NCBI RefSeq assembly: GCF_009914755.1
Contig: NC_060930.1
Source: the human T2T-CHM13v2.0 reference genome, Homo sapiens
Strand: one strand, 5' to 3'
DNA length: 64,000 nt
The notes under the pieces are model-generated. The model had not been told where the DNA came from, made no database searches, and saw only the letters and a list, made by a program, of their open reading frames with translations. Positions 19,621 through 21,108 of the stretch are shown one piece after another; the stretch's first letter is position 1; the number at the start of each line of letters is the position of its first letter. A program made the translations under genes and the position numbers.

Positions 19621-20189
19621 TGAGGCAGGCAGATCACGAGTTTAAGACCAGCCTGACCAACATGGTGAAACCCCATCTCTATTAAAAATACAAAAATTAG
19701 CCAGGCGTGGTGGCATGTGCCTGTAATCCCAGTTCAATGGGATCCCAGCTCAATGGGATTACTAAAACAAGCACTTAGTGCTGTATACATTCTCTAATTT
19801 ACAATTTTATACACAGAGGAAAACACCAAAACCTGGATGAGTCGGGAAAAGACTTTGAAGAGAATGCAGAACGTGAATACACCCTTATAAAATGTTGACT
19901 TAAGGCAGAGAAGATGAAGAACCATGTAAGAGGAAAGAATGGCACGGGCAAAAAAGCTTCAAGGAATGCATGTGAAACGTACAGTGTTGGTTGGTGTGTG
20001 TCTCCACTAAATGGTTTAGAAATCATGGAAAGTCAAACTGAATAAAGAAAAAATATTCAGGAGGCTGATGCAGGAGAATCGCTTGAACCCGGAAGGCAGA
20101 GGTTGCAGTGAGCTGAGATCGTGCCACCGCACTCCAGCCTGGGTGACAGAGTGAGACTCCGTCTCAAAAAAAAAAAAAAAAAAAAAAAA
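19621..20189 (+). mobile_element. AluS split by a ~320-bp non-Alu insertion (19733-20053)
   Basis: Alu runs to cctgtaatcccag at 19732 and resumes at tattcaggaggctga ~20054. Confidence 0.9.
19757..20056 (+). repeat. Copy A of a ~300-bp local direct duplication
   Basis: Aligns by eye at ~90% to 20803-21108; the ORF track gives near-identical translations ([16 protein letters not shown]...). Confidence 0.95.
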
Positions 20190-20747
20190 TCATGGCAGTG
20201 GGGAACTCCTCTGCTTTCAGTATGCCCTATCCAAAGCCATCACTACCTTCCCAGGAATACTGCACCCAACCTTTCTTCCTCCCTTAAATGATCAAGTGTC
20301 CCTCATTCTTTGCTGAATTCCTCTGGCCTGTGAAGACATGAAGCCCCTTTCTACTCCTGCCTGAAAAGATATTCCCTCACTCTCAGTCCCCACCTCCTGT
20401 CTCCTATATTTTCTTCGATTTCTATAAATATTTCAATGCTTCCCTCACATAAAAAGTTTTCTGAAGTAACAAATTTCCATGTTCTCTAACATATCATTTC
20501 AGACTATAAAAAGAAAAAATTTAAGGTATCATGTTACATTTATTACAAATGAATTCTTTTTAAAAATTCAGGTGACATCTCATTAAACTTTCTCTTATAA
20601 CCCATATTATGTTCCCAAATTCATGCAAAAAAAATCAATTTTTAAAAATAAGAGTTTAGAGAATCAAATCACTTAAATTTTTGAGTTGTCAATACTTGGC
20701 CAGACTCTGTTATAGAATACCTAATTCTACAAGAATTTGTATTTCTC

Positions 20748-20777
20748 TACCCACAAAAATTAAAAATTAAAATTTTT
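20748..20777 (+). mobile_element. Ultra-short L1MA 3'-tail insertion
   Basis: tacccacaaaaattaaaaattaaaa matches the L1 terminus at 17017-17040; flanked by aattt(g/a)tatttctc at 20734-20747 and 20778-20791. Confidence 0.6.
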
Positions 20778-20802
20778 AATTTATATTTCTCCTCAAGTGT
20801 TA

Positions 20803-21108
20803 GATTAAAATGAGCACTTCAGGCTGTATACATTCTCTAATTAATTTGCAATTTTATACACACATGCAAAAAAATACCAAAACCTGGATGAGTCAGGAAA
20901 AGACTTTGAAGAGAACATAGAACTTGAATACAGCCTTATAAAATGTTGACTTAAGGCAGAGAAGATGAAGAACCATCTAAGAGGAAAGAATGACATGGGC
21001 AAAAAAGCTTCAAGGAATGCATGTGAAATGTACAGTGTTGGTTGATGTGTGTCTCCACTAAATGGTTTAGAAATCATGGAAAGTCAAACTGAATAAAGAA
21101 AAAAATAT
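20803..21108 (+). repeat. Copy B (probable donor) of the ~300-bp duplication
   Basis: Match to 19757-20056; continues uninterrupted into old L2-like sequence. Confidence 0.93.

What the first reader, a model, noticed from the sequence alone, without database searches (positions are those of the whole stretch)
19621..21108. Alu split by a ~300-bp copy of unique DNA from 1 kb downstream, with a fold-back/duplicated junction
Seen: the Alu stops at ...cctgtaatcccag (19732). It continues as ttcaatgggat-cccagctcaatgggatta, a 16-bp unit present twice that contains the inverted pair atccca/tgggat. It then copies 20803-21108 (left overlap gatta, right overlap tat) and resumes at tattcaggaggctga. There is no poly(A) tail or TSD around the insert. 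Inference: not retrotransposition but a templated insertion made during break repair (synthesis-dependent end joining / polymerase-theta-like, or SDSA with template switching). The Alu acts as a ruler showing which copy is the insert.
Basis: partly seen in the sequence, partly recalled or inferred. Interest (0 to 1): 0.75.

Follow-up and report, generated by a model that had tools for sequence, protein, structure and literature searches.

The report
Repair-made local duplication splitting an Alu
An old Alu repeat in an NHSL1 intron is split by a 321-base patch copied from unique DNA about 750 bases downstream, a scar of DNA break repair that a 2009 genome-wide survey already describes and lists at this locus.

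Summary
An Alu (19621-20190) stops at 19732 and resumes at 20054. In 15 other Alus of the window the same two halves are one base apart. Here 321 bases lie between them.

Bases 19763-20053 match 20806-21105 on the same strand, with 17 substitutions in 290 ungapped columns. A search of the whole T2T assembly found only these two copies. There is no added poly(A) and no target-site duplication. The right junction has 2-3 nt of microhomology. The left junction has 16-30 nt of filler built from a 16-nt unit present twice.

It is not new. Pace, Sen, Batzer and Feschotte 2009 (PMC2671141) used this ruler logic genome-wide and named such events repair-mediated duplications, finding 824 proximal ones in human.

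[quoted passage not shown] That geometry matches this locus.

Only the fine junction anatomy goes beyond the published row. Verdict: real, well read, already known, low interest.

The parts
19621..19732 (+). Left part of the host Alu. It lacks roughly the first 45 nt compared with intact Alus of the window, and ends at ...CCTGTAATCCCAG. Table S1 of PMC2671141 calls it AluSg.
19733..19762 (+). Junction filler of 16-30 nt, depending on where donor homology is taken to start. A 16-nt unit occurs twice (19726-19741 and 19742-19757, 15 of 16 identical) and spans 7 nt of the Alu end. The filler also holds the 10-nt palindrome TGGGATCCCA and TGGGATTAC, which is inverted against the Alu's GTAATCCCA.
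   Evidence: (D8, I7). The 30-mer occurs once in the whole assembly at up to 3 mismatches, so it was not captured from a second donor.
19763..20053 (+). Acceptor: the inserted copy of the donor (291 nt).
   Evidence: 17 substitutions in 290 ungapped columns and 5 indel events. Four of the five indel events lie in the first 62 nt.
19770..19782 (+). Perfect palindrome AGCACT-T-AGTGCT, present only in the acceptor. The donor has the imperfect AGCACTTCAGGCT at 20813-20825.
   Evidence: The acceptor hairpin folds at -3.6 kcal/mol against -1.1 kcal/mol for the donor stretch.
20054..20190 (+). Right part of the same Alu, resuming at TATTCAGGAGGCTGA, with its poly(A) tail.
20790..20805 (+). Possible extension of donor homology: CTCAAGTGTTAGATTA in the donor against CTCAATGGGATTA at 19749-19761. 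This is uncertain.
   Evidence: It is a weak match with gaps and could be chance.
20806..21105 (+). Donor: the unique template, 753 bp downstream of the acceptor's end and on the same strand. TAT at 21106-21108 is shared with the resuming Alu and forms the right-junction microhomology.
   Evidence: Table S1 row.

Best explanation
This is a repair-mediated duplication. A double-strand break opened a resident AluSg between ...CCCAG(C) and TAYTC. One resected 3' end annealed by a few bases to unique DNA about 0.75-1 kb downstream, on the same chromosome or its sister, and copied about 300 nt. The new strand was then released and joined to the other Alu end through 2-3 nt of microhomology (TA or TAT).

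The left junction carries 16-30 nt of filler made of direct and inverted short repeats of the Alu end and of the start of the copy. Such filler is expected from repeated abortive priming or template switching before the final join. Alternatively it arose from a later 16-nt slippage duplication.

The event is old (catarrhine ancestor) and sits in an NHSL1 intron. No function is implied.

Shown here: the split Alu, the single donor, the absence of poly(A) and target-site duplication, the junction sequences, and the catalogue entry.

Inferred: the break, which end primed synthesis, and the polymerase.
For: - Alu as ruler: in 15 other Alus of the window the two halves are exactly 1 base apart, against 321 here.
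- Single donor: the whole-assembly search gives only the donor and the acceptor.
- Geometry: same strand, 753 bp between acceptor end and donor start.
- Ends: no added poly(A), no target-site duplication, at most 1 Alu base lost, TA(T) shared at the right junction, filler at the left.
- Filler origin: the 30-mer is unique in the genome at up to 3 mismatches, so it was made locally.
- Published class: PMC2671141 (sections 4, 6, 7, 8 and 14 read) defines it. The paper reports 824 proximal events of up to 619 bp and a peak of donor-acceptor distance near 1.2 kb, which the authors say may be an artefact of using TEs as markers. None of the 39 inspected proximal events had poly(A/T). Reported hallmarks are microhomology of 2-9 nt, filler of 1-68 nt and deletion of 1-15 nt.
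- Published locus: Table S1 row 791 reads chr6 hg18 139004022-139004339, AluSg, 317 bp; donor 139005093-139005390, 297 bp, downstream, distance 754, filler 20, divergence 5.9028%, present HCOR. My measures are 321, 299, 753, and 17/290 = 5.86%. The table's figure equals 17/288.
Against: - No outgroup sequence could be read here. The empty site, and the claim that the insert is absent from marmoset, rest on the paper's table alone.
- Identity of the hg18 row with this T2T locus is inferred from matching geometry, subfamily, chromosome and divergence. It was not established by a coordinate lift-over.
- The K2P distance of the clean 3' 229 nt is 0.050, which gives 11-25 Myr at 2.2 to 1.0e-9 per site per year. 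That is on the young side for an insert shared with rhesus. A slow rate or some gene conversion between the copies would have to be assumed.
- A break is inferred, not observed. A replication-fork template switch that returned to its point of departure would leave the same sequence.
- The tandem 16-nt unit may be a later slippage event and so say nothing about the repair.
Confidence: 0.8

Rival explanations
1. This is a replication-based template switch (FoSTeS/MMBIR-like) without a two-ended break. The nascent strand left the Alu, primed about 1 kb ahead by microhomology, copied about 300 nt, and switched back.
For: - The junctions show microhomology.
- The donor is local and on the same strand.
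- Indels cluster in the first 62 nt of the copy: 4 events in 62 nt against 1 in 229 nt, Fisher p = 0.008.
- A quasi-palindrome is made perfect only in the copy.

The last two points are what a low-processivity, switch-prone polymerase would leave. MMBIR is linked to templated insertions in the abstract of PMC8421209, which I saw only in the listing.
Against: - The return landed within 0-1 base of the departure point. That is automatic for two ends of one break, but only 2-3 nt of homology would guide a free switch there.
- Substitutions alone are not significantly clustered (6 in 62 nt against 11 in 229 nt, p = 0.22).
- The clustered changes could postdate the insertion.
Confidence: 0.13
2. 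This is an RNA-templated insertion. A local transcript was reverse-transcribed at a break, by endonuclease-independent L1 activity or transcript-templated repair.
For: - The locus lies in a transcribed intron, according to the hub's annotation.
- The donor copy ends 8-11 nt after an AATAAA (21092-21097) and inside an A-run.
- In PMC2671141, 17 of 29 inspected distant duplications looked like retrotransposition.
Against: - There is no added poly(A): the copy has one A fewer than the donor.
- There is no target-site duplication.
- The break site CCCAG/CTAC is not A/T-rich.
- The donor is 753 bp away on the same strand. In the paper, 0 of 39 inspected proximal events had poly(A/T) tracts.
- Transition differences are not strand-coherent (both G/A and C/T types), so there is no RNA-editing trace.
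Confidence: 0.04
3. The feature is not a single event. It is either a multi-copy repeat nested in an Alu, two unrelated Alu fragments flanking a tandem duplication, or an assembly artefact.
For: None was found. In its favour only: the genome search tool gives lower bounds and could miss old, diverged family members.
Against: - There are only 2 copies in 3.1 Gb.
- The halves meet at the same consensus position as in 15 other Alus.
- No Alu half follows the donor.
- The copies differ by about 6-9%, so they are not a collapsed or duplicated assembly.
- The same structure, with the same dimensions, was recorded in hg18.
Confidence: 0.02

Closest known systems
Repair-mediated duplications (RDs) of Pace, Sen, Batzer & Feschotte 2009, PLoS Genet 5:e1000469 (PMC2671141)
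   Same: Everything that defines the class is present:
- a TE interrupted at one consensus position;
- an insert with exactly one other genomic copy;
- a donor less than 5 kb away;
- no poly(A), with microhomology and filler at the junctions.

The 321-nt length is within the paper's range (maximum 619 bp). The locus matches Table S1 row 791.
   Different: Nothing of substance differs. The insert is about twice their mean length of 162 bp. The paper did not dissect this junction, because only human-specific events and a sample of hominid-specific events were inspected. The table marks the locus as outside a RefSeq gene, whereas the current annotation places it in an NHSL1 intron.
'Doublets' / short paired duplications (Thomas et al., as cited in PMC2671141 section 14; the paper itself was not read, and details beyond that section are recalled)
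   Same: They are local duplications. According to PMC2671141 section 14 they share many attributes of RDs, and Thomas et al. proposed that some arise by imperfect break repair.
   Different: According to section 14, the earlier surveys of short duplications, Thomas et al. among them, looked at identical or nearly identical duplicons under 100 bp. This pair is about 300 bp long and about 6% diverged.
Polymerase-theta-mediated end joining with templated insertions (abstract of bioRxiv 10.1101/2019.12.20.882852, seen only in the listing; the synthesis-dependent MMEJ snap-back/loop-out scheme is recalled)
   Same: The junctions are microhomology-primed. The filler is composed of direct and inverted repeats of break-proximal sequence.
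   Different: The main tract is about 300 nt, copied from 0.75-1 kb away. From recall, that is far longer and more distant than the usual short templated inserts. No enzyme can be assigned from sequence.
L1-mediated retrocopies / processed pseudogenes (target-primed reverse transcription)
   Same: They are also dispersed copies of unique sequence inserted into other DNA.
   Different: Here there is no target-site duplication, no added poly(A) and no A/T-rich nick site, and the donor is adjacent on the same strand.

Membership tests
Repair-mediated duplication (Pace et al. 2009) | Two fragments of the same TE, in the same orientation, are separated by at least 50 bp, and their consensus positions meet within +/-30 bp. 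| tested here: met
   the halves are 1 base apart in 15 other Alus of the window and 321 bases apart here. The criterion comes from the Methods passage shown.
Repair-mediated duplication (Pace et al. 2009) | The inserted sequence is found at exactly one other place in the genome. | tested here: met
   2 matches in the 3.1-Gb assembly, the donor and the acceptor. The tool's counts are lower bounds.
Repair-mediated duplication (Pace et al. 2009) | The donor is on the same chromosome, more than 50 bp and less than 5 kb from the acceptor. | tested here: met
   753 bp, same strand, downstream.
Repair-mediated duplication (Pace et al. 2009) | No poly(A/T) tract of 5 bp or more is added at an end of the insert. 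| tested here: met
   the terminal A-run is part of the donor (7 A), and the acceptor has 6.
Repair-mediated duplication (Pace et al. 2009) | The breakpoints show microhomology, filler and/or a small deletion. | tested here: met
   TA(T) at the right junction, 16-30 nt of filler at the left, and 0-1 nt of Alu lost.
Repair-mediated duplication (Pace et al. 2009) | An empty (uninterrupted) site exists in an outgroup species. | not testable with these tools
   No primate genomes are held. Table S1 gives 'HCOR', which the paper defines as catarrhine-specific.
L1-mediated retrocopy (TPRT) | A target-site duplication flanks the insert. | tested here: not met
   no Alu bases are repeated across the insert. 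The repeated ATCCCAG lies wholly on the left side.
L1-mediated retrocopy (TPRT) | A poly(A) tail is added at the 3' end. | tested here: not met
Simple tandem duplication | The copies are adjacent, and the whole unit, including the Alu right half and the spacer, is present twice. | tested here: not met
   only the ~300-nt segment is duplicated, and no Alu hit follows 21108.

The most novel reading that the evidence does not exclude
The left junction and the first ~60 nt of the copy are a fossil record of the repair synthesis itself. In this reading, several rounds of short, error-prone, switch-prone priming came before a processive ~230-nt tract. Those rounds would have left:
- direct and inverted copies of the Alu end;
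- a 16-nt unit made twice;
- a quasi-palindrome 'corrected' to a perfect one;
- four indels in 62 nt.

This locus would then document a hybrid of theta-type end joining and SDSA in the catarrhine germline. The 824 catalogued RDs could be re-mined for the same gradient, to infer which break end primed synthesis.
Probability: 0.2. Interest if true: 0.35.

Novelty: already known. Interest (0 to 1): 0.12.

Why it matters
It matters little as a discovery. Both the phenomenon and, by matching geometry, this locus were published in 2009.

It is useful as a check on the first stage.

The only residue of interest is the uneven distribution of changes along the copy and the structured filler. If outgroup sequences show these date from the insertion, they would say something about the fidelity and directionality of germline repair synthesis.

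Tried and rejected
- **Multiple alignment.** One search failed on a coordinate-order slip. The repeat, aligned the split Alu with five intact Alus. MAFFT mis-registered the left half onto the homologous CCTGTAATCCCAG motif of the Alu left monomer. I therefore used that alignment only to see that the host Alu lacks about the first 45 nt. The continuity argument rests on BLAST coordinates.
- **Second donor for the filler.** The 30-mer is unique in the assembly at up to 3 mismatches. Rejected.
- **Local templates for acceptor-specific stretches.** I searched for exact words within about +/-3-5 kb on both strands. Beyond the donor, the filler's own repeat and generic Alu words, only 9-10-nt matches that look like chance turned up.
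- **RNA editing or other strand-specific bias.** In 10 of 13 transition differences the acceptor has G/C where the donor has A/T (binomial p = 0.09). Both G/A and C/T types occur. This is neither significant nor strand-coherent.
- **Clustering of differences at the 5' end of the copy.** It is significant only when indel events are counted: p = 0.011 for all events and p = 0.008 for indels alone. Substitutions alone give p = 0.22.
- **Target-site duplication of the host Alu.** None is adjacent to its ends.
- **Literature.** One search found the key paper. One search found 9 papers using the term 'repair-mediated duplication'. Apart from PMC2671141 I saw only their listing, and no title or abstract start there concerns such duplications.

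Full report
**What is there**

Reading 19400-21400 shows an Alu that begins near 19621. It lacks about the first 45 nt that intact Alus of the window have (rows). It runs to ...CCTGTAATCCCAG at 19732, resumes at TATTCAGGAGGCTGA at 20054, and ends in a poly(A) tail at 20190.

I used the window's other Alus as the yardstick. BLAST of the left half (19621-19732) gave 41 hits and of the right half (20054-20165) gave 43 hits. Of these, 34 left hits reach the boundary and 22 right hits start at it. They pair up 17 times. One pair is the locus itself, and one (39921/40090, 168 nt apart) I take to be two different Alus. In the other 15 Alus the halves are exactly one base apart (C in 14, A in 1).

So a single Alu has been opened between CCCAG(C) and TAYTC. 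It has lost at most one base and has no bases duplicated across the gap. The gap holds 321 bases.

**The insert and its source**

Within the window the only strong match to 20740-21160 is 19763-20053, at 90.6% over 299 columns with E = 1.8e-117, on the same strand. The next best hit is a 24-nt match at 17017-17040. I judge it to be A/T-rich, low-complexity sequence from the donor-side bases.

A search of the whole 3.1-Gb assembly with the donor returned two places only, the donor and the acceptor. The tool notes that its counts are lower bounds.

A gapped global alignment gives 17 substitutions in 290 ungapped columns (5.86%) and 5 indel events. The acceptor's end and the donor's start are 753 bp apart.

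The donor ends ...AATAAAGAAAAAAATAT|G and the acceptor ends ...AATAAAGAAAAAATAT|TCAGG. No poly(A) was added. TA or TAT is shared between the donor end and the resuming Alu.

**The left junction**

Between the Alu end and the first confidently donor-derived base lie 30 nt, at 19733-19762. A 16-nt unit is present twice in tandem, at 19726-19741 and 19742-19757, with 15 of 16 bases identical. Its first 7 nt are the Alu's own ATCCCAG.

The stretch also contains the perfect palindrome TGGGATCCCA and the 9-nt inverted pair GTAATCCCA/TGGGATTAC. As single-stranded DNA the 40-mer folds at -6.8 kcal/mol (z = -2.3; 4 of 200 shuffles fold as well).

The 30-mer occurs nowhere else in the assembly at up to 3 mismatches. 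It was therefore built locally and not captured from a second donor.

A weak, gapped resemblance links CTCAATGGGATTA (19749-19761) to the donor's upstream CTCAAGTGTTAGATTA (20792-20807). If that resemblance is real, the true filler is just the extra 16-nt unit. I cannot decide this from one genome. I also cannot tell whether the 16-nt duplication dates from the repair or from later slippage.

**Unevenness along the copy**

The first 62 nt of the acceptor carry 6 substitutions and 4 indel events. The remaining 229 nt carry 11 substitutions and 1 indel event.
- All events: Fisher p = 0.011.
- Indels alone: p = 0.008.
- Substitutions alone: p = 0.22.

Two of the indels turn the donor's imperfect AGCACTTCAGGCT into the perfect palindrome AGCACTTAGTGCT (19770-19782). 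The acceptor hairpin folds at -3.6 kcal/mol against -1.1 kcal/mol for the donor. A single intrastrand template switch would produce exactly this change. The lineage and date of these changes need outgroups.

**Mechanism**

The structure is what a two-ended break repaired by synthesis on a nearby ectopic template would leave:
- both Alu ends kept to the base;
- one local same-strand donor;
- a few bases of microhomology;
- filler at one junction;
- no retrotransposition marks.

A fork-based template switch (FoSTeS/MMBIR type) is the main rival. It explains the switch-like scars well. It is less natural for a return to within one base of the departure point.

An RNA-templated event is unlikely, for three reasons. 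No A's were added. The donor is adjacent. The transition differences are not strand-coherent.

**Comparison with what is known**

A full-text search led to Pace, Sen, Batzer and Feschotte 2009 (PMC2671141). I read the abstract and sections 4, 6, 7, 8 and 14, plus passages found by term, and searched Table S1.

The paper scans RepeatMasker output for TEs interrupted by at least 50 bp whose insert has exactly one other genomic copy. It finds 1,136 such cases. In 824 of them the donor is within 5 kb: mean 162 bp, maximum 619 bp, with a peak of donor-acceptor distance near 1.2 kb that the authors caution may be an artefact of using TEs as markers.

None of the 39 inspected proximal cases had poly(A/T). 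The reported hallmarks are microhomology of 2-9 nt, filler of 1-68 nt and deletions of 1-15 nt. The events are attributed to synthesis-dependent strand annealing and named repair-mediated duplications.

Table S1 row 791 lists the following, against my measures from the T2T sequence:

| Feature | Table S1 row 791 (hg18) | This locus (T2T) |
|---|---|---|
| Acceptor | chr6 139004022-139004339, AluSg, 317 bp | 321 bp |
| Donor | chr6 139005093-139005390, 297 bp, downstream | 299 bp |
| Distance | 754 | 753 |
| Filler | 20 | 16-30 nt |
| Divergence | 5.9028% (equals 17/288) | 17/290 = 5.86% |
| Presence | 'HCOR' | not testable here |

I take this to be the same locus, on geometry and without a lift-over.

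One mild tension remains. The K2P distance of the clean 229 nt is 0.050, which gives 11-25 Myr at 2.2 to 1.0e-9 per site per year. That is young for an insert shared with rhesus.

**Verdict**

The finding is an already known kind of event at an already catalogued locus.

What is added here is the junction anatomy, the acceptor-only perfect palindrome and the end-biased indels. These are small leads about the fidelity of repair synthesis, and they need primate outgroups to mean anything.

Noticed in passing
window 19565-19586 and 20218-20239 (9-mer CCAAAGCCA at 19578 and 20231): The host Alu has no target-site duplication next to its ends and lacks about its first 45 nt. A 22-nt stretch, 73% alike and holding an exact 9-mer, lies about 35-40 nt outside each end of the Alu, on both sides (D6, 29). 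This may be chance. It may also be a trace that the Alu arrived or was truncated by something other than a plain insertion.
   Followed up: partly
window 19763-20053 versus 20806-21105: The acceptor has 4 CpG and the donor has none. At 3 of these sites the donor shows the usual CpG-decay products (CA or TG). In 10 of 13 transition differences the acceptor has G/C and the donor has A/T (p = 0.09). The direction cannot be polarised without outgroups.
   Followed up: partly
window 19865-19867 versus 20916-20918: Three adjacent bases all differ between the copies (TGC against CAT), in an otherwise clean stretch. This looks like a multi-nucleotide change and not three independent hits.
   Followed up: no
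window 21092-21108: The donor copy ends 8-11 nt after an AATAAA hexamer and inside an A-run on the + strand, antisense to NHSL1. I considered this as a hint of an RNA intermediate and set it aside, because no A's were added in the acceptor.
   Followed up: partly
window 21109-21120: Just past the donor's copied end lies TATTCCAG, which resembles the resuming Alu's TATTCAGG. An alternative right junction is therefore possible: 5 nt of microhomology (TATTC) followed by a 7-nt deletion between TAT repeats. It is less parsimonious than the TAT junction.
   Followed up: no
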